IMG/VR virus record: IMGVR_UViG_3300018080_000222
Coordinates: 1-54,119 of that record
Origin: a virus
Taxonomy: Duplodnaviria > Caudoviricetes
Length of the DNA stretch: 54,119 nt
Direction: 5' to 3' (one strand)
The number at the start of each line of letters is the position of its first letter. Within the stretch, counting starts at the first letter, position 1. The position numbers and the translations under genes were made by a program. The notes beneath the pieces are model-generated. The model worked only from the letters and a program-made list of their open reading frames with translations, made no database searches and was not told where the DNA came from. This document shows positions 14,136 through 28,773 of the stretch, piece after piece.

Positions 14136-14207
14136 TACCAGCGACAGGAGTCGAACCTGCATTACCTGGTCCACAGCCAAGCGTTCTACCGTTAAACTAC
14201 GCCAACC
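14136..14207 (-). tRNA. tRNA-His(GTG), degenerate acceptor stem
   Basis: Anticodon arm CTTGG-CTGTGGA-CCAGG; T arm GCAGG-TTCGACT-CCTGT; acceptor GTTGGCG/CGCTGGT has four G-U pairs and A73. Confidence 0.7.
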
Positions 14208-14238: not shown

Positions 14239-14421
14239 TTACTGTCTCCCAAAGACAGATGGTGAGTCCCCACATCTGATACATCGTTTCATAAAATGTG
14301 TATTGTTACCCCAACGGTCATGTTCAACCAGAGTATGGGGCTCAGCATAACTGTGACCCAAGACCCAACACACCGCACGACGCAACCAGTACCTTAAATT
14401 CCTTGGCGGTATTCTTTTCAT
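14239..14421 (-). CDS. Small zinc-binding phage protein (DUF1660-like)
   Basis: CWVLGH...CIRCG pattern; ATGA overlap with upstream gene. Confidence 0.5.
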   Translation of the reverse strand: MKRIPPRNLRYWLRRAVCWVLGHSYAEPHTLVEHDRWGNNTHFMKRCIRCGDSPSVFGRQ

Positions 14422-15014
14422 TTCTTATCTCCTGTCTGATTAATTTCCATAATCTTTTTTAATTCATCTCTCGGGGTTAGACTGGATGACCTATAAACCC
14501 ATCCGTCATTAGTCAGCAATAGGTGTCTAATCGCATGGTGATTGTGGCACAGAATCTCTAGGTTGGCTATGTTATTGTTGTTTTTATCCCCATCTATATG
14601 GTGAACCACCAACATATATCTATGTTTAACACCACAATCCGAACATTGGTTAGGGAGCATCCGATACGCAATATCTCGATAATTAGATGGACTTACCGGG
14701 TTATAGTGTCGTGGATGTATGTCAGAACAACTACCCAAAAAGCTTTGTGCATAATCTTTACACCGTCTGCTACAAAAGGTTTTGCCGTGCTTAGAGTTTT
14801 TAAGCTTATTGGGGGTGCGGCTAAATGGTTTTCCACAATTATCGCAGACAACAACAATCCTGTTTCTGCGACCGATATTAGAACAATTGTGTGAGCAATA
14901 TTTTGGCTGCGGTCTTGTATCAGAGACCAATCTCTCCACAAATTCTAAGCCACAGGTTTGACACACATATATCTTCCCACGACGTTTGTGTCCATATTTG
15001 TCTGTAAAGGTCAT
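14418..15014 (-). CDS. HNH endonuclease with Cys-rich zinc-finger repeats
   Basis: Start reassigned to MTFTD (track start lies inside tRNA-Ala); CQTCG..YCSHNC, CDNCG..FCSRRC, VHHIDGDKNNNNIANLEILCHNHH. Confidence 0.85.
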   Translation of the reverse strand: MTFTDKYGHKRRGKIYVCQTCGLEFVERLVSDTRPQPKYCSHNCSNIGRRNRIVVVCDNCGKPFSRTPNKLKNSKHGKTFCSRRCKDYAQSFLGSCSDIHPRHYNPVSPSNYRDIAYRMLPNQCSDCGVKHRYMLVVHHIDGDKNNNNIANLEILCHNHHAIRHLLLTNDGWVYRSSSLTPRDELKKIMEINQTGDKK

Positions 15015-15028
15015 ACAGTTACCTCCAC

Positions 15029-15100
15029 TGGAAGCATTCGGATTCGAACCGAAATCTCCTGCGTGCAAAGCAGGCGTGTTCCCATTATCACTATGCCCCC
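15029..15100 (-). tRNA. tRNA-Ala(TGC)
   Basis: GGGGGCA/TGCTTCC-A acceptor with G3-U70; CCTGC-TTTGCAC-GCAGG; GGTTCGAATCC. Confidence 0.9.
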
Positions 15101-16400: not shown

Positions 16401-16649
16401 CTAGTCGTCATCTGGCCAATTCCTATCAATTTGTTCCTGGGCAAAACTTCCAGGACGCCTCGCGATACCTGCCCCCGGCATGGATGACTCCAGAGCTATA
16501 CAGGCAGCTATGTCACACCTTTTGGAGCACACCGGACCACCGTAGAAGTTCATGGGGAGCCTATCACCTGTGTCAGGATGCAAAACAACTCCACCAGATG
16601 TTTTCTTAAGCAAACGTTCACAATAACGACATCGAACTTCATCATCCAT
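16401..16649 (-). CDS. Small Cys-rich hypothetical protein
   Basis: Start reassigned to MDDEV; CRYC...VCSKRC. Confidence 0.55.
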   Translation of the reverse strand: MDDEVRCRYCERLLKKTSGGVVLHPDTGDRLPMNFYGGPVCSKRCDIAACIALESSMPGAGIARRPGSFAQEQIDRNWPDDD

Positions 16650-17274
16650 CGATAATCTCCACAGTAATCCCTCGCTTCTTCGCTTCCCGGACAATATGCT
16701 TCGTGCCCTTTGATTTCGACATATCATCATGGAAGGCGATAAGCAAATCTGGTTTCGTATTCAACATCCTAATGTTCCTTTTGGGTCCTGCTGCTTTACC
16801 ATATTTCTTCCACGCTGCCGGGAATTCAACCACCTCTAATCCGATATCCAGAGCAACTTCGCGAGCGATCAAGTCAGCCCCTTCGCACCCACCCTCGATC
16901 ACAGTGGTGATATGTGGCAACTCAAGTAATCTCTTACGTATAGTTGGGATATCTTTCCAGTCCCGCGAGCCACATACAATAACCTTCATGTTTCCATCCA
17001 AGTATTCGACGATCACATCTCCGTGACACGCCTTGGGTTTACAAAAACATCCGAGTCTTTTGCCTCTGAGTAATTCGATACGTGCAACAAACTCTGGATC
17101 AACCCGTAGCCGTTGATAAAAGTAATCACGATATAACTCAATTACTCGCTCTCTGCCGCCATCCTTACCTATGGCAAACGGATTTCCAAAGTATCCATCA
17201 TCACCATCCCTCGCCCGGCCAACATAAACATCGCACTTATTGGTCCGTATGTTGACTACCGTGGTTTTCCCCAT
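16642..17274 (-). CDS. DUF4326 domain fused to YspA-like SLOG (DUF2493) domain
   Basis: DVYVGR..FGNPF..GKRLGCFCKPKACHGDV, then VIVCGSRDW..GGCEGAD..AAGPKRNIRML..SKGT. Confidence 0.85.
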   Translation of the reverse strand: MGKTTVVNIRTNKCDVYVGRARDGDDGYFGNPFAIGKDGGRERVIELYRDYFYQRLRVDPEFVARIELLRGKRLGCFCKPKACHGDVIVEYLDGNMKVIVCGSRDWKDIPTIRKRLLELPHITTVIEGGCEGADLIAREVALDIGLEVVEFPAAWKKYGKAAGPKRNIRMLNTKPDLLIAFHDDMSKSKGTKHIVREAKKRGITVEIIDG

Positions 17275-18962: not shown

Positions 18963-19035
18963 AGCTAGGAGTGGGATTCGAACCCACAACCCCCGCTTCA
19001 CAAAAGCGGTGCTCTACCATTTGAGCTACCCCAGC
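18963..19035 (-). tRNA. tRNA-Thr(TGT)
   Basis: GCTGGGG/TCCTAGC acceptor; CCGCT-TTTGTGA-AGCGG (G37); GGTTCGAATCC. Confidence 0.88.
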
Positions 19036-19039
19036 ACTC

Positions 19040-19339
19040 TTAAAATCCACACTGCTTACCGTATTCTTCCCAGATTGCCTTCCGGAAATCTCTGGGCAAT
19101 CCCCAAAGAGCATCGACAAGCGACCTCTTCCTGCCAGTAGCTCGACAGAAATTATCATTAGGATGACAAACTGCCATTCCATCATTCGCCAATTTCCCAT
19201 CGATCAGTAATACGGCAGATGAACATCTTCGTGATTCATCTGTAACGATACCAGTTCGTCCCTCTACCTCGCCTGGCTTAAGACGACCATGGTAAAAACG
19301 TATTTCGGCTTTACATCCATCATGCGTAACTCTTAGCAT
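19040..19339 (-). CDS. Hypothetical phage protein
   Basis: AVCHPNDNFCRATGRKRSL-type motif. Confidence 0.6.
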   Translation of the reverse strand: MLRVTHDGCKAEIRFYHGRLKPGEVEGRTGIVTDESRRCSSAVLLIDGKLANDGMAVCHPNDNFCRATGRKRSLVDALWGLPRDFRKAIWEEYGKQCGF

Positions 19340-19683
19340 CCTTCTTCTCCATTTTCCAACTCTCTTTTCAAAACCTCACAAAGTTCTTCAACCGATGTAT
19401 AAACCGGTTTACCTAGTTGCTTGGCTAACTCTACTTCTTGGGTAGCCCCCTTGGAAGGACCGGCCAATCTTAGGACAATATCACATTGCCTAACCCACTC
19501 CATACACATATCCATCCACGTATGATAATTCTGCGGATGAACAAAATGCCAAAAATGAAACAAGTGTGGTACGAATGGAGCACAGTCAAACTCCACCAAA
19601 CGATTAGCAGCATCGATAGCTGCCCTGACGTTCAGGATAGTATCTCCCTCAGTATATGGTCCTGCTATGTAAACCTTGTACAT
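19333..19683 (-). CDS. DUF4406/DUF1937-like nucleoside 2-deoxyribosyltransferase-fold protein
   Basis: Start reassigned to MYKVYIAGPY (AGAGGAG RBS); CDIVLRLAGPSKGATQEVELA. Confidence 0.75.
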   Translation of the reverse strand: MYKVYIAGPYTEGDTILNVRAAIDAANRLVEFDCAPFVPHLFHFWHFVHPQNYHTWMDMCMEWVRQCDIVLRLAGPSKGATQEVELAKQLGKPVYTSVEELCEVLKRELENGEEGC

Positions 19684-19700
19684 TGAATCTTCTCCTCTAA

Positions 19701-19851
19701 TGGCTACGGGCTGGATTCGACCAGCAGTTCCCTGTTGCTTGCGGCAACTTTCGTTCATAGGTCCTAAAACTTGAACTTGGCAGTTTTGTGGGAACACCCC
19801 GCCAAAGCCGACTATCTGTCGAGTGTCGCCCTAACAAGACACACCGCAGCC
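19701..19851 (-). ncRNA. tRNA-like RNA with ~82-nt multi-hairpin variable region
   Basis: 8-bp end stem GGCTGCGG/CCGTAGCC, D-like arm TGTC/GACA, stem TCGAC/GTCGG, T-like arm GCTGG-TCGAAT-CCAGC. Confidence 0.55.
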
Positions 19852-19990
19852 TAGTCCAGGAATAGGGGGCCTCGCACTCCCCTCGGTGGTCACTATTCCG
19901 GCGTTCACCACTAACTACCGCGACTTCGGTTTCAGCACAATTTCTTGCGAGCCCATTGCTCGCTCATGCTCTCTCTAGTGTCGCCTAGAG
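19852..19990 (-). ncRNA. Structured non-coding segment between tRNA-Asp and the tRNA-like RNA
   Basis: Consecutive helices CTCTAG/CTAGAG, GCGAGC/GCTCGC, ACCG/CGGT, GGAATAG/CTATTCC, GGGG/CCCC; no credible ORF. Confidence 0.4.
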
Positions 19991-19996
19991 TTAGAT

Positions 19997-20069
19997 CGAC
20001 GATGATGGGATTCGAACCCACATCTCCTGGATCGACAGTCCGGGGCTCTACCAGTTAAGCTACATCGCC
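19997..20069 (-). tRNA. tRNA-Asp(GTC)
   Basis: GGCGATG/CATCGTC-G acceptor; CCGGA-CTGTCGA-TCCAG; GGTTCGAATCC. Confidence 0.88.
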
Positions 20070-20342
20070 ATTCTCTCGTATCTTTTCGTCCTCATAGGTG
20101 CTCATGTGTCTACGACGAAACTCAGCAGCAGCTTCGGTCATCGCAGACATAACAACGGCCATCCTGGCATATGATCTTTTGCCGCCAGTTTCCTGATTCG
20201 TGAGGAGCTTGGCGAGACGGAAAAGGATATAGTTAAGCTCTCCACCAACTGAGCCATCGCTTTCCCTCGTATTAAGAATATCTGCGAGTCTATCAATCAG
20301 TGGATCATATTTGTCTCGCTCTGGTTTCTTGATATATGGCAT
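20055..20342 (-). CDS. Conserved phage protein (MPYI...GELNY family)
   Basis: MPYIK...GELNY...EFRRR...YEDEKIRENGDV. Confidence 0.7.
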   Translation of the reverse strand: MPYIKKPERDKYDPLIDRLADILNTRESDGSVGGELNYILFRLAKLLTNQETGGKRSYARMAVVMSAMTEAAAEFRRRHMSTYEDEKIRENGDVA

Positions 20343-20974
20343 TATTGTTTAGTCTTTCTTTTTTGTCCAGGTACAACGGATAGGGCCTCTTCGACAGACC
20401 ATCCTGCCGCCAACCTATATTGAATAGTACCCACTTTTATTCCAATATCATCTGACCATTTGGTTATACATTGTGTCTTGCCCCCATATGTTAACACATG
20501 ATTATTCCTTCTGTTGGATTGCTGTTCTTTTCTGGTAGCCCACCTACAATTTTCTGGACAATAATTGCCATTGTTATCTATCCGATCCAGAGAACGTCCT
20601 TCGGGACGCTCTCCCATATCTGCCAAGAAGTTTTCAAATTTAAGCCATCTTCGGCAAACGACAATCCCGCGACCACCGTAATCTTTGTACTGTTGGTATA
20701 TGCGATTAGTACATCTTTGGATCATGTGATCCCATGATTTATAGGTACCAGATATTTGTCCCGTACTGTGCCCATGTCGAGTCATGATGTCCTTATGGAA
20801 GCAACCACAACTATTAGTGTGTCCATTAACCAAATGACTGCCTGCGACAACGGTCGTTTGGCCACAGTGGCACTCACATAACCACATAGAATTTCCACGG
20901 CTATTGTTGGAAACCCTTTCCACAACAGTCAAGCGTCCGAACTTATCACCGATTAATCTCAGGGGTTTAGACAT
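20342..20974 (-). CDS. HNH homing endonuclease
   Basis: GDKFGRLTVV..WLCECHCG; YGGRGI..DRIDNNGNYCPENCRWAT. Confidence 0.85.
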   Translation of the reverse strand: MSKPLRLIGDKFGRLTVVERVSNNSRGNSMWLCECHCGQTTVVAGSHLVNGHTNSCGCFHKDIMTRHGHSTGQISGTYKSWDHMIQRCTNRIYQQYKDYGGRGIVVCRRWLKFENFLADMGERPEGRSLDRIDNNGNYCPENCRWATRKEQQSNRRNNHVLTYGGKTQCITKWSDDIGIKVGTIQYRLAAGWSVEEALSVVPGQKRKTKQ

Positions 20975-22319: not shown

Positions 22320-22663
22320 TCATCGCCTTTGTCGCTACCAAATACATCAGGTCCAACTCTGGGCTTTGGGACATCTTTGCTGTCTCGCACCCATCGTTGT
22401 GGGTTGATTTCTTCTATCGGCAGATTGGGTGGTTCAACATGATCTAATGGACGCTTGGCCGGATGGATAATTGTATCTGGTCCGGCACATCCTTGGCACA
22501 TAGTCAGAGACGTTGGCGATGGAAGTTTCTCAAGTTCACCCAATACAAACCCAAGTACCGAAGCCAACTCACTGACCAAAACCTTCGGATGCTTAGTCCC
22601 AGTAGACTTACTGATGTCTGCTAGCTTCTTTTTCGCTGACTCTAAATTCATCTCTACCTCCAT
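22316..22663 (-). CDS. Hypothetical protein
   Basis: 115 aa (start may be MNLES at 22651). Confidence 0.5.
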   Translation of the reverse strand: MEVEMNLESAKKKLADISKSTGTKHPKVLVSELASVLGFVLGELEKLPSPTSLTMCQGCAGPDTIIHPAKRPLDHVEPPNLPIEEINPQRWVRDSKDVPKPRVGPDVFGSDKGDE

Positions 22664-23165
22664 CCGTTATGTACGGCAATTCACGACACAGGCCATCCCT
22701 ATCTAGTCCGTAACCGAATACAAATTTGTCCGGTATGTCGAACCCAACGAAATTGGCCACAACACCATTGGTCGCCTTACCCGGTTTCCTTAACAATACT
22801 GCCGTCGTAATATCTTCTGGATTAGAAAATCTGAGTTCCTTCTTGACTACACTTAGTGTAACGCCGGTATCCAGAATATCATCTATTAACAGGACTCTGG
22901 TACCGAATAGTGAGGTAATCGGTTCGGCAATAATCTTCGGCATCTGGGGAACAGTAGCTAGACCAGGATAAGTAGATGTCCTGATAAAATCAATCTGGAC
23001 TTCGGTTTTCATCTTTCTGATCAGGTCAGTCATGAAAAAGAGGGCACCAGACAGAACTCCGATTACGACAATAGGTCTTCGCTCGTTCCTGTAATAGTCA
23101 TCAACCCTACCAGCCATTGCCGCGATTCTAGCTTGGATTTGATCTGCGCTGATAAGCTCTCTCAT
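22608..23165 (-). CDS. hpt: Hypoxanthine-guanine phosphoribosyltransferase
   Basis: GVLSGALFFMTDL, PRPP motif VLLIDDILDTGVT, FVFGYGLD..RELPYI; start MRELIS (ATGA overlap). Confidence 0.92.
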   Translation of the reverse strand: MRELISADQIQARIAAMAGRVDDYYRNERRPIVVIGVLSGALFFMTDLIRKMKTEVQIDFIRTSTYPGLATVPQMPKIIAEPITSLFGTRVLLIDDILDTGVTLSVVKKELRFSNPEDITTAVLLRKPGKATNGVVANFVGFDIPDKFVFGYGLDRDGLCRELPYITDGGRDEFRVSEKEASRHQ

Positions 23166-23443
23166 AAGTCCAGCCTTATCTTTCGAATACAACCGATAGC
23201 CCTATAAACAGCCTTCTTCAGCCTGGCAACGTGTCCGTCAACCGAACAATTCTCTGGGTCTGTATTGACCGGCAATTTGGTCCATCTGCTCTTGATCACT
23301 ATGCCGTCTAGCGTTATAACGATATCAGCCTGTCGCTGTAAAAAATCATCTTCAGTGTCCTTGAAGTCGCTATCGACTATCAGGATTTTCCCGGTAATCA
23401 TTCGGGCCTTTATTCGTTTAACGCCCTCTAGCTTGTGGTACAT
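23162..23443 (-). CDS. Hypothetical protein
   Basis: 93 aa, coupled to hpt. Confidence 0.55.
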   Translation of the reverse strand: MYHKLEGVKRIKARMITGKILIVDSDFKDTEDDFLQRQADIVITLDGIVIKSRWTKLPVNTDPENCSVDGHVARLKKAVYRAIGCIRKIRLDL

Positions 23444-27993: not shown

Positions 27994-28003
27994 TTATACA
28001 CCA
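27994..28003 (-). promoter_or_regulatory. Class L promoter TGGTGTATAA for tail tube
   Basis: Formed by terminal codons (I-G-V-stop) of the LAGLIDADG gene. Confidence 0.7.
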
Positions 28004-28773
28004 ATAGCACTCAAATATTTCCGTGTTAATGATATGCTAGTATTATCATAAAGAGCACACAATAATCTGGCTATATATTTACCAGCATACTTAATTTCCC
28101 AACAACAATCTGTTTTTTTATATGGCGATACATTCGGTGACCATCCCAAAATATGGCTTATGAATTGATGGAAATTAACAACTACATCATAGGTACCGCA
28201 AATACCGAGTATTTTCTTGCTCACCCACCCATCCCCATCAATCATCCCTCGCCAAAAATGCCTATTGCTTTTCAAAGCTTCGGGAACTTTAGCAATCCTA
28301 CTTTTTCGAGGAACAATCCCATATTCTGCCAATTTTTCCACAATTCTGTTGGAATAAATACTCAAGAAGACTCCATTTTTATTGTAATACAACGGCTTAT
28401 CAGAACCAACGAATTTTTTGAACTTTTCCAAGTGCTCCCAATCCTTAGCAGCCAACCCTAAGTTCAATTGCTTCGATCTTCTCGGGGGATGGTAGATATT
28501 ACCATCAGCCAAAATAAAGCCTACCCAATAGGCGCTTTCTTCCGTAATTGTATCGAAGATATTTTCTCTAATCTGATTCGTCCTTTTCGCGTTGCTGCGA
28601 TTCCGGACAAAAACCCCTCGCCTTTTTAATAGAGACGTAATCGTAACATCAGCAACATTATATTTAAATCCTAATTGTCTGGCAGACTTTCCTCCTTCAT
28701 ATTCCCCTATTATTTCCTGCGTTACTGCCTCGCTCGGATTCCACTGATCTGATCTACTTTTTCTGTCCTGCAT
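27994..28773 (-). CDS. Free-standing LAGLIDADG homing endonuclease with N-terminal HTH
   Basis: AYWVGFILADGNI and HFWRGMIDGDGWV. Confidence 0.88.
   Translation of the reverse strand: MQDRKSRSDQWNPSEAVTQEIIGEYEGGKSARQLGFKYNVADVTITSLLKRRGVFVRNRSNAKRTNQIRENIFDTITEESAYWVGFILADGNIYHPPRRSKQLNLGLAAKDWEHLEKFKKFVGSDKPLYYNKNGVFLSIYSNRIVEKLAEYGIVPRKSRIAKVPEALKSNRHFWRGMIDGDGWVSKKILGICGTYDVVVNFHQFISHILGWSPNVSPYKKTDCCWEIKYAGKYIARLLCALYDNTSISLTRKYLSAIGV

What the first reader, a model, noticed from the sequence alone, without database searches (positions are those of the whole stretch)
19701..19851. tRNA mimic with a giant, possibly pseudoknotted variable domain
Seen: tRNA-like spacing throughout. G(-1) plus 7-bp acceptor GCTGCGG/CCGTAGC with C73 (or an 8-bp stem plus A), U8, 4-bp D stem TGTC/GACA with a GG-containing loop, 5-bp stem TCGAC/GTCGG with only a 5-nt loop (AGATA), and T stem GCTGG/CCAGC with a 6-nt TCGAAT loop. 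The 82-nt variable region (19807-19726) holds TTGGCGG/CTGCCAA, TTCA/TGAA and GTTGC/GCAAC helices and a possible GTTCCC/GGGAAC pseudoknot. Established: G-1:C73 is the HisRS identity element. Inference: it cannot decode, so it may be a decoy for anticodon nucleases, synthetases or stringent-response sensors, or a processing handle for a larger RNA. It is too short and lacks G3-U70 for tmRNA.
Basis: partly seen in the sequence, partly recalled or inferred. Interest (0 to 1): 0.75.

Follow-up and report, generated by a model that had tools for sequence, protein, structure and literature searches.

The report
Phage tRNA-like RNA that cannot decode
An uncultured large phage carries, inside its tRNA gene cluster, a conserved 151-base RNA that keeps the top half of a tRNA but has a short stub and a knotted extra domain where the anticodon arm should be, so it is a new tRNA look-alike of unknown job, comparable to the still unexplained small RNAs of phage T4.

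Summary
It is one of 10 distinct homologues from a lineage of uncultured ~160-kb phages. On the model-fitted alignment, 96.4% of cells pair. 18 of 37 pairs change on both sides, against 10.2±1.8 in shuffles (0 of 500 reach it) and 3-8 in slid controls. The pseudoknot is 100% paired, with 3 of 6 pairs compensatory.

Rfam gives no hit even at E≤10, and ARAGORN finds nothing here. The same tools find true tmRNAs in relatives.

The RNA has an 8-bp (7-bp in 3 of 10) acceptor stem, a purine discriminator, a D arm with GG and a T arm. A 4-bp hairpin with a 4-5-nt loop stands in place of the anticodon arm, so it cannot decode. The G-1:C73 histidine reading is not supported.

In 5 of 10 members a real tRNA ends 1-6 nt upstream. 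It is single-copy in five related genomes.

I read it as a tRNA-processed, stable, non-decoding tRNA mimic: a functional analogue, not a homologue, of T4 species 1 RNA. Its function was not shown.

The parts
19701..19851 (-). Whole tRNA-like RNA gene (151 nt, 5' end at 19851, discriminator A at 19701; no encoded CCA)
   Evidence: Covariance model R1 matches 19701-19851 end to end at 129.3 bits, E 1.7e-33. In 5 of 10 homologues a real tRNA ends 1-6 nt before the equivalent 5' end.
19844..19851 (-). Acceptor stem, 5' strand (8 nt)
   Evidence: Pairs with 19702-19709. The helix has 8 pairs, 5 with changes on both sides, 98.7% paired.
19823..19842 (-). D arm: 5-bp stem (19842-19838 / 19827-19823) and a 10-nt loop holding the invariant motif UUGUURGGG with the GG
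   Evidence: 4 of 5 pairs change on both sides in the length-based parse. 3 of 5 do in the model alignment, where the window row is partly gapped. The loop motif is invariant in A2, but homologues were collected with a pattern that contains it.
19809..19821 (-). Stub hairpin in place of the anticodon arm: 4-bp conserved stem, 5-nt loop
   Evidence: 4 pairs, 3 with changes on both sides, 100% paired. The loops are 4 or 5 nt in all 10 members, so there is no anticodon loop.
19779..19803 (-). P1 hairpin (5 bp) whose 15-nt loop carries the 5' strand of the pseudoknot (19795-19790)
   Evidence: 5 pairs, 1 with changes on both sides, 100% paired.
19753..19776 (-). P2 hairpin (5 bp here, 4 in six members) with a 14-nt loop holding invariant GGACC
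   Evidence: 4 of 5 pairs change on both sides. GGACC is invariant, but the metagenome and genome search patterns contained it.
19734..19748 (-). P3, a variable hairpin (window-specific form)
   Evidence: It is replaced by longer nested hairpins in G001 and L049, and is short or absent in L010, L043 and L029. It is not a conserved helix.
19727..19732 (-). 3' strand of the pseudoknot, pairing with 19790-19795
   Evidence: 6 pairs, 3 with changes on both sides, 100% of cells paired.
19710..19725 (-). T arm: 5-bp stem and a 6-nt loop (one U short of the canonical 7)
   Evidence: 5 pairs, 97.9% paired. The loop is 7 nt in 5 of 10 members and 6 nt in 5 of 10.
19702..19709 (-). Acceptor stem, 3' strand
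   Evidence: See the 5' strand entry.
19852..19995 (-). Neighbouring but separable conserved structured RNA block (not part of the tRNA-like RNA)
   Evidence: It aligns across the window, G001, L050, L053 and L010. RNAalifold gives 40 pairs, 3 with changes on both sides. It was not found in G002, G004 or G005.
19040..19339 (-). Conserved 99-aa gene that follows the element in relatives; a possible partner or merely the next gene
   Evidence: It is 57% identical to the G001 protein. It starts 28-39 nt after the element in 8 of 9 related loci. In the window the DUF7768 gene 19333-19665 lies between them.

Best explanation
This is a gene for a stable, non-decoding tRNA-like RNA that belongs to the phage's tRNA cluster.

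How I think it works:
- It is transcribed on the minus strand with the neighbouring tRNAs and small genes.
- It is cut out by the tRNA maturation machinery: RNase P at the G at 19851, then 3' trimming to the purine at 19701, then CCA addition.
- It keeps the acceptor/T coaxial stack and the D-loop/T-loop elbow of a tRNA. A 4-bp stub plus a pseudoknotted three-hairpin domain replaces the anticodon arm and variable loop.
- It would therefore act in trans as a tRNA mimic. The tRNA-like top half would engage proteins that read the tRNA elbow and acceptor end. The conserved pseudoknot domain, with the invariant GGACC loop, would give it a partner of its own.

Shown: the structure, its conservation, the strand, the single copy, its placement as a unit of the tRNA cluster, and the absence of an anticodon loop.

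Inferred: processing, CCA addition, stability and action in trans.

Unknown: the partner.
For: 1. Covariation supports every helix, including the pseudoknot (96.4% paired; 18 of 37 pairs compensatory against 10.2 ± 1.8; 0 of 500 shuffles; slid controls 3-8). One search agrees.
2. Wobble pairs are G-U or U-G on the minus strand, with one non-canonical cell in total. The constraint therefore acts on a minus-strand RNA, not on DNA.
3. A real tRNA ends 1-6 nt upstream in 5 of 10 distinct members: L009, L015, L010, L043 and L029. The 5' end thus sits where the next tRNA of a cluster would start.
4. The neighbouring tRNA-Asp of this window also lacks an encoded CCA, so the missing CCA fits tRNA-type maturation.
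5. The element is present once in each of five related genomes, three of them 96-100% complete, and once in the window.
6. No sigma-70-like promoter or terminator of its own appears on the minus strand.
7. Precedent: T4 carries two small stable RNAs directly after tRNA-Arg in its tRNA cluster. The 3' domain of species 1 RNA has a T arm and an 8-bp acceptor-like stem. Their roles are still called unknown (passages of PMC3014915 and PMC9697503).
Against: - There are no expression data. No RNA run is listed for this sequence, so a discrete transcript, processing and CCA addition are all unshown.
- In L049 no tRNA lies directly upstream; the gap to tRNA-Asp is 113 nt.
- The T loop has 6 nt in 5 of 10 members, which is not a canonical T loop.
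- The alignment used for one search was fitted to the model structure, and the parse to my own. Both therefore lean towards that structure.
- The 10 sequences come from one phage lineage, so relatedness inflates the shuffle control.
- RNAalifold on the raw alignment recovers only 3 of the 7 helices.
- The constant position about 30 nt upstream of one gene also fits a cis-acting role.
Confidence: 0.55

Rival explanations
1. Anti-defence decoy. The mimic soaks up a host immune protein that recognises the tRNA elbow or acceptor end, for example toxins that modify or cleave the 3' end of tRNAs. It would thereby protect the real tRNAs.
For: - It sits in an accessory region with an RNA ligase.
- It lies next to a 99-aa protein whose only PDB sequence match is the sponge Acb4, although weakly (E 0.068).
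- The top half of the tRNA is conserved while the decoding half is discarded.
Against: - No defence protein or target is identified.
- The Acb4 similarity is below significance, and Pfam gives no family for the protein.
- A decoy for anticodon nucleases is excluded by the missing anticodon loop.
- A conserved pseudoknot domain is not needed for a plain decoy.
Confidence: 0.13
2. Cis-acting leader or punctuation signal. The structure is the 5' leader of the downstream 99-aa gene. It either marks an RNase P cut that frees that mRNA, or serves as an operator bound by the protein itself, which has a dsRBD-like fold.
For: - The 99-aa gene starts 28-39 nt after the element in 8 of 9 related loci.
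- The Atlas places the protein near Rv2632c-like/dsRBD-fold clusters.
Against: - In the window another gene (DUF7768, 19333-19665) lies between the RNA and the 99-aa gene.
- In L050 the RNA is intact and scores highest (163 bits), while only a 32-aa remnant of the protein frame remains.
- A mere cut signal would not need a conserved pseudoknot.
Confidence: 0.12
3. Aminoacylated tRNA mimic. A synthetase that ignores the anticodon (LeuRS, SerRS, AlaRS or HisRS type) charges it. It then serves as an amino-acid donor or enters the ribosome like a tag-less tmRNA.
For: - It has a 12-13-bp acceptor/T stack, a purine discriminator and a large extra arm, as in class II tRNAs.
- The lineage does deal in trans-translation. 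True tmRNAs are present in G001, G002, G005, L043 and L049.
- That class II synthetases ignore the anticodon is recalled knowledge, not tested here.
Against: - There is no G3-U70.
- The G-1:C73 reading is not supported.
- There is no tag frame.
- No encoded partner such as SmpB or a transferase appears among the 20 proteins scanned.
- The discriminator varies: A in 8 and G in 2 of 10.
Confidence: 0.08
4. 3' domain of one larger RNA of about 295 nt, formed together with the conserved upstream block 19852-19995.
For: - The whole 295 nt aligns at 76% identity with G001.
- The two parts abut in the window, G001, L050 and L053.
Against: - A complete tRNA-Glu separates them in L010.
- The block was not found by DNA search in G002, G004 (100% complete) or G005, all of which have the element.
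- The acceptor stem closes the element on itself.
Confidence: 0.05
5. Decaying tRNA gene that picked up an insertion; no function.
For: - The T loop is 6 nt in half of the members.
- ARAGORN calls part of the L029 copy a 96-nt tRNA-Ile.
Against: - Compensatory changes occur in all seven helices, including the inserted domain.
- It is retained as a single copy in five genomes.
- ARAGORN calls nothing at the element in the window, L002, L009, L010, L015, L043 or L049.
Confidence: 0.03

Closest known systems
Phage T4 species 1 RNA (rnaC), with species 2 RNA (rnaD)
   Same: - Both are small stable RNAs encoded inside a phage tRNA cluster directly after a tRNA, two in tandem (119 and 139 nt in T4; 145 and 151 nt here), with a homing endonuclease gene in the cluster.
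- The 3' domain of rnaC has a canonical T arm and an 8-bp acceptor-like stem with hairpins in between and no anticodon arm.
- The function is unknown (passages in PMC3014915 and PMC9697503).
   Different: - It is not a homologue. The family model scores rnaC at only 10.4 bits (E 0.026 in 8 kb), carried by the T arm and acceptor.
- rnaC has a 45-nt 5' extension.
- My reading shows no D arm and no counterpart of the pseudoknot.
tmRNA tRNA-like domain with pseudoknot PK1 (RF00023)
   Same: - An acceptor/T-arm mimic joined to an H-type pseudoknot.
- No anticodon.
- Phage-encoded examples exist in this same lineage.
   Different: - 151 nt against about 350 nt.
- No G3-U70, no tag frame, and a real 5-bp D stem.
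- No Rfam hit at E ≤ 10, while the relatives' tmRNAs score 124-141 bits.
- The element coexists with tmRNA in G001, G002 and G005, and persists without it in G003 and G004.
Class II tRNAs, tRNA-Sec and 'allo-tRNAs' with 8-bp acceptor stems (recalled from the literature, not read here)
   Same: - A long extra arm between the anticodon stem and the T stem.
- An 8-bp acceptor in 7 of 10 members.
   Different: - Those all have a 7-nt anticodon loop and decode; this RNA has a 4-5-nt loop.
- The extra region here is 53-99 nt, with a pseudoknot.
- There is no tRNA or tRNA-Sec model hit.
Bacterial Y-RNA-like YrlA and herpesvirus MHV68 tRNA-like RNAs (recalled, not read here)
   Same: Non-decoding RNAs with tRNA-like D, T and acceptor modules that are handled by tRNA-processing enzymes.
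   Different: - In YrlA the RNA ends form the Ro-binding stem, not the acceptor stem.
- No Rfam match was found.
- No Ro/Rsr gene was looked for in the window.
tRNA-like structures at the 3' ends of plant RNA virus genomes
   Same: tRNA mimicry combined with a pseudoknot.
   Different: - Those are 3' ends of RNA genomes, and their pseudoknot builds the acceptor stem.
- Here a DNA phage encodes a free-standing gene, and the pseudoknot lies in the variable region.

Membership tests
canonical tRNA (RF00005) | Acceptor stem of 7 bp closed by the 5' and 3' ends, with an unpaired discriminator | tested here: met
   8 bp in 7 of 10 members and 7 positions in 3 of 10 (one with a G-A end). A purine discriminator is present in 10 of 10.
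canonical tRNA (RF00005) | Anticodon arm with a 7-nt loop | tested here: not met
   The loop is 4 nt in 4 members and 5 nt in 6 of 10.
canonical tRNA (RF00005) | Detection by the Rfam tRNA model (29 bits) or by ARAGORN | tested here: not met
   There is no hit at 19701-19851 at gathering score or at E ≤ 10, and none by ARAGORN. The one ARAGORN call, inside the L029 copy, uses the P2 loop as anticodon loop.
canonical tRNA (RF00005) | D arm with GG and T arm with a U-U-C-R-A-type loop (the elbow) | tested here: met
   The D stem has 5 bp and an invariant GGG in the loop. The T loop is canonical (7 nt) in 4 of 10 members, has 7 nt with A first in 1, and has 6 nt in 5.
tmRNA (RF00023) | G3-U70 alanine identity pair | tested here: not met
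   Pair 3 is C-G in 9 members and U-G in 1.
tmRNA (RF00023) | Internal tag reading frame ending in a stop codon | tested here: not met
   By reading the aligned sequences, the stop after P1 in the window and G001 is not kept in L009 or L010. ARAGORN reports no tmRNA here but reports one with a tag peptide in L029.
tmRNA (RF00023) | Match to the Rfam model | tested here: not met
   There is no hit at E ≤ 10. As a positive control, the model scores 124-141 bits in related phages.
T4 species 1 RNA (rnaC) | Small RNA gene placed directly after a tRNA within a phage tRNA cluster, with a T arm and acceptor-like stem | tested here: met
T4 species 1 RNA (rnaC) | Homology of sequence and structure | tested here: not met
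   R1 scores rnaC at 10.4 bits, against ≥103 bits for family members.
T4 species 1 RNA (rnaC) | Accumulates as a discrete stable RNA in infection | not testable with these tools
   No RNA run is listed.
tRNA-His-type substrate (G-1:C73) | An extra 5' G paired with C73, followed directly by CCA | tested here: not met
   In the 3 members with a canonical 7/5 stack the first G is position 1. All 10 have a purine after the stem. Aminoacylation itself cannot be tested here.
YrlA / Y RNA | Ro-binding stem formed by the RNA ends; rsr gene nearby | not tested
   The only evidence is the absence of an Rfam match. No search for a Ro/TROVE protein was made.

The most novel reading that the evidence does not exclude
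The RNA and the 99-aa protein encoded next to it form a phage counter-defence pair. The protein has a dsRBD-like fold and is a distant relative of the Acb4 sponge family. In this reading, a CCA-tailed tRNA mimic without an anticodon is held or delivered by the protein. It then traps or misleads host immune enzymes that act on the tRNA acceptor end or elbow. That would be the first RNA decoy of this kind.
Probability: 0.1. Interest if true: 0.85.

Novelty: new variant of a known kind. Interest (0 to 1): 0.6.

Why it matters
Phage tRNA clusters are usually read only as a supply of codon-matched tRNAs. T4's two extra small RNAs in its cluster have gone unexplained for decades.

This is a second, unrelated family of such RNAs. 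It has a well-supported structure that keeps exactly the tRNA parts read by processing enzymes, the CCA-adding enzyme and many tRNA-binding proteins, and it replaces the decoding part with a conserved pseudoknot. That suggests non-decoding tRNA mimics are a recurrent phage device.

The family gives a compact 136-173-nt RNA with a defined fold to test for partners. It is timely now that many anti-phage systems are known to attack tRNAs.

It also shows that tRNA finders and Rfam miss such genes.

Tried and rejected
**Rfam.** The window was scanned at gathering score. Positions 19000-20400 were scanned at E ≤ 10, and five related loci at E ≤ 1. No family covers the element or the upstream block.

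**Cultured phages.** blastn 'distant' against 50,697 GenBank phage records found no match, with 19600-20100 and with the L050 copy. The RNA ligase finds 241 records, all below 60% identity. A 504-aa protein of the window finds none. There is therefore no cultured relative.

**Bacterial and archaeal genomes.** The family pattern matched 4 stretches, all in GC-rich coding-like DNA without the rest of the element. No host or prophage copy was found.

**Wider search.**
- A relaxed pattern gave 40 stretches in viral contigs.
- None of the 34 new loci matched the model; the best scored 14 bits, E 0.094.
- Of the 35 stretches, 6 are members and 29 are chance.
- Of the 13 stretches, 9 are members and 4 are chance.
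- Of the 6 stretches, 3 are members and 3 are chance.
- The search for related loci with the DUF7768 protein found nothing.

**Expression.** No RNA holder is listed. Three DNA runs were listed, and read laying was not used.

**tmRNA.** None lies in the window region syntenic to G001's tmRNA.

**Alternative pairings.** RNAalifold proposed pairing the GGACC loop with the T arm, and the D-loop GGG with the P2 strand. I rejected both. They involve invariant columns only. The first is broken in L015 by my reading. The second is broken in the window.

**Literature.**
- Searches returned no paper describing this RNA.
- PMC10690425 reports 8,495 candidate structured RNAs from IMG/VR, some of them tRNA-like (passages). 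Its supplementary tables could hold this motif, but supplements are closed, so I cannot say that it is unreported.

- One search failed on a term that was too short and was corrected.

Full report
**Where it lies.** The window is a 54,119-base viral contig, estimated 32% complete. Nearly all long ORFs are on the minus strand. ARAGORN finds six minus-strand tRNA genes between 14060 and 20070, and Rfam confirms five of them. They are interspersed with small ORFs, homing endonuclease genes and an RNA ligase. The finding lies between tRNA-Asp (19996-20070) and a DUF7768 / nucleoside-deoxyribosyltransferase-like gene. By its Pfam alignment and ribosome-binding site, that gene starts at the ATG at 19665.

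**The observation.** The single sequence folds better than shuffles (z = -2.86; 1 of 200 shuffles folds as well). The minimum-energy fold differs from the cloverleaf in the 5' half, so one sequence alone is not decisive.

**Homologues.**
- The RNA ligase led to one related contig of 160,681 bases, G001. There the whole 295-nt intergenic stretch aligns at 76% identity.
- Exact and degenerate motif scans then gave further copies in viral contigs and metagenome contigs. None came from 185,579 species genomes (all 4 matches were chance).
- A covariance model built from ten distinct copies scores 16 places at 103-163 bits over 542,707 bases. The best non-member scores 21.9 bits.
- After removing identical copies there are 10 distinct sequences of 136-173 nt.
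- The model finds exactly one copy in each of five related genomes, three of them 96-100% complete, and one in the window.
- A relaxed scan added no members.
- GenBank phages hold nothing similar.
- The family is therefore real but, as far as these searches reach, confined to one lineage of uncultured phages of about 160 kb. The search patterns contained the D-loop and P1 motifs, so more divergent members would have been missed.

**Structure.**
- On the model-fitted alignment with the pseudoknot added, 96.4% of 358 cells form standard pairs. 18 of 37 pairs show changes on both sides. Shuffles give 10.2 ± 1.8, none of 500 reach 18, and partners slid by 1-3 columns give 3-8.
- Each of the seven helices has at least one compensatory pair. 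The stub hairpin has 3 of 4, and the pseudoknot has 3 of 6 with 100% pairing.
- My own parse, made by slicing the stored sequences at segment lengths, gives 21 of 38 pairs with two-sided changes and one non-canonical cell.
- Both alignments were fitted to the structure, and the sequences are related, so these numbers are generous.
- RNAalifold on the raw MAFFT alignment recovers only the acceptor, the stub hairpin and P1. MAFFT misregisters the 5' end of two rows there.
- Wobble pairs are G-U on the minus strand throughout. This fixes the transcribed strand and argues for an RNA-level constraint.

**Anatomy.**
- The acceptor stem has 8 bp in 7 of 10 members and 7 positions in 3 of 10.
- One to five linker nucleotides follow, beginning with U in 9 of 10.
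- The D stem has 5 bp, and its loop holds an invariant UUGUURGGG.
- A 4-bp hairpin with a 4- or 5-nt loop stands where the anticodon arm belongs.
- P1 has 5 bp, and its loop pairs with the six bases just before the T stem, forming an H-type pseudoknot.
- P2 has an invariant GGACC in its loop.
- A variable region holds a hairpin that is long in G001 and L049 and short or absent in three members.
- The T arm follows, then the acceptor 3' strand, then a purine (A in 8, G in 2). None of the 10 has an encoded CCA.
- The acceptor and T stems sum to 12 bp in the four members with a canonical 7-nt T loop. They sum to 13 bp in the six others, five of which have a 6-nt T loop. If the innermost T-stem pair opens in those five, the sum is 12 there too. 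That last step is my inference.

**What it is not.**
- It is not a decoding tRNA. It has no 7-nt anticodon loop, no Rfam tRNA hit even at E ≤ 10 and no ARAGORN call. The single ARAGORN call, in the L029 copy, takes the 16-nt P2 loop as an anticodon loop and is not reproduced in the other copies scanned.
- It is not a tmRNA. It lacks G3-U70, a conserved tag frame and a model hit. The same tools find full tmRNAs 2.5-4.3 kb upstream in L029, L043 and L049, and also in G001 and G002. The element coexists with tmRNA in those genomes and persists in G003 and G004, which lack one.
- It is not coding. The GTG-started ORF 19333-19797 overlaps it only through an N-terminal extension that the Pfam match does not cover. 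In relatives a different gene follows.
- It is not the 3' part of a larger RNA. The conserved upstream block is a separate module.

**How it probably works.**
- In five of ten members a bona fide tRNA ends 1-6 nt before the first G.
- The neighbouring tRNA-Asp of the window also lacks an encoded CCA.
- No promoter or terminator of its own is seen on the minus strand.
- The simplest reading is that the RNA is one more unit of the polycistronic tRNA cluster. RNase P would release it, 3' trimming would follow, and the CCA-adding enzyme would complete it.
- What is conserved is what those enzymes and many tRNA-binding proteins measure: the acceptor/T stack and the D/T elbow. That these are the parts recognised is recalled knowledge; for PMC4810234 I saw only the listing and abstract.
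- The decoding half is replaced by a conserved pseudoknot domain. I therefore commit to a trans-acting, non-decoding tRNA mimic whose pseudoknot domain gives it its own partner (confidence 0.55). I cannot name the partner.

**Context leads.**
- A 99-aa gene follows the element at 28-39 nt in 8 of 9 related loci. Its window copy is 19040-19339, 57% identical to G001's, with the DUF7768 gene inserted between.
- This protein has no Pfam or PHROG family.
- A profile search finds 2,619 representatives at E ≤ 0.001.
- Two of ten distant hits scanned touch PF13876 or PF08962 below their cut-offs.
- The only PDB sequence match is the cyclic-nucleotide sponge Acb4, at E 0.068.
- Atlas neighbours include Rv2632c-like/dsRBD-fold clusters. 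Acb4 is described as dsRBD-like in fold (PMC11722364, section 8).
- This allows two readings: an RNA-binding partner, or an unrelated sponge that is simply the next gene.
- In L050 the RNA is intact while only a 32-aa remnant of the gene remains. This argues against strict dependence of the RNA on the protein.

**Comparison with the known.**
- The nearest analogue is T4 species 1 RNA. T4 places rnaD (119 nt) and rnaC (139 nt) directly after tRNA-Arg, with segB in the cluster.
- The 3' 94 nt of rnaC have a canonical T arm and an 8-bp acceptor-like stem.
- The roles of both are still called unknown.
- The family model scores rnaC at only 10.4 bits. The relation is one of kind, not of descent.
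- No paper found describes this RNA. The supplement of PMC10690425 could not be checked.

**Verdict.** The feature is real, and its structure is well supported. It is a new family and a new architectural variant of non-decoding tRNA-like RNAs in phage tRNA clusters. Its function is open.

Noticed in passing
window 19852-19995 (minus strand): A second conserved, structured non-coding block lies directly upstream of the element, with no Rfam match. It is more conserved in sequence than the tRNA-like RNA across the window, G001, L050, L053 and L010. One variable hairpin carries an insertion of about 100 nt in L010. RNAalifold gives 40 pairs, 3 of them compensatory. The block was not found in G002, G004 or G005.
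   Followed up: partly
window 19040-19339 (minus strand), protein P0001: A conserved 99-aa protein follows the tRNA-like RNA in relatives. It has no Pfam or PHROG family. A profile search finds 2,619 representatives. There are weak links to the Acb4 sponge (PDB 9e4w, E 0.068) and to Rv2632c-like dsRBD-fold proteins. In L050 only a 32-aa remnant remains.
   Followed up: partly
L029 7274-7620; L049 4084-4434; L043 3372-3722; also G001 and G002: Related phages encode a full-length tmRNA (124-141 bits; tag peptide reported in L029), 2.5-4.3 kb upstream of the tRNA-like RNA. G003, G004 and the window's syntenic region have none.
   Followed up: partly
window 20342-20974, 14418-15068, 27994-28773 (minus strand): Three homing-endonuclease-like genes (two HNH, one LAGLIDADG) sit in or near the tRNA region. 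This recalls segB in the T4 tRNA cluster.
   Followed up: no
L029 2987-3082: ARAGORN calls the 3' 96 nt of the L029 copy a tRNA-Ile (GAU), taking the P2 loop as anticodon loop. Automatic annotation could therefore mislabel members of this family as tRNAs.
   Followed up: yes
window 16642-17274 and 22608-23192 (minus strand): There is a DUF4326 + YspA-type SLOG fusion protein and a phosphoribosyltransferase. Both are nucleotide-handling accessory genes near the tRNA cluster.
   Followed up: no
window 14136-14206 (minus strand): By my reading of the sequence, the acceptor stem of the predicted tRNA-His is made largely of G-U wobble pairs, which is unusual for a functional tRNA.
   Followed up: no
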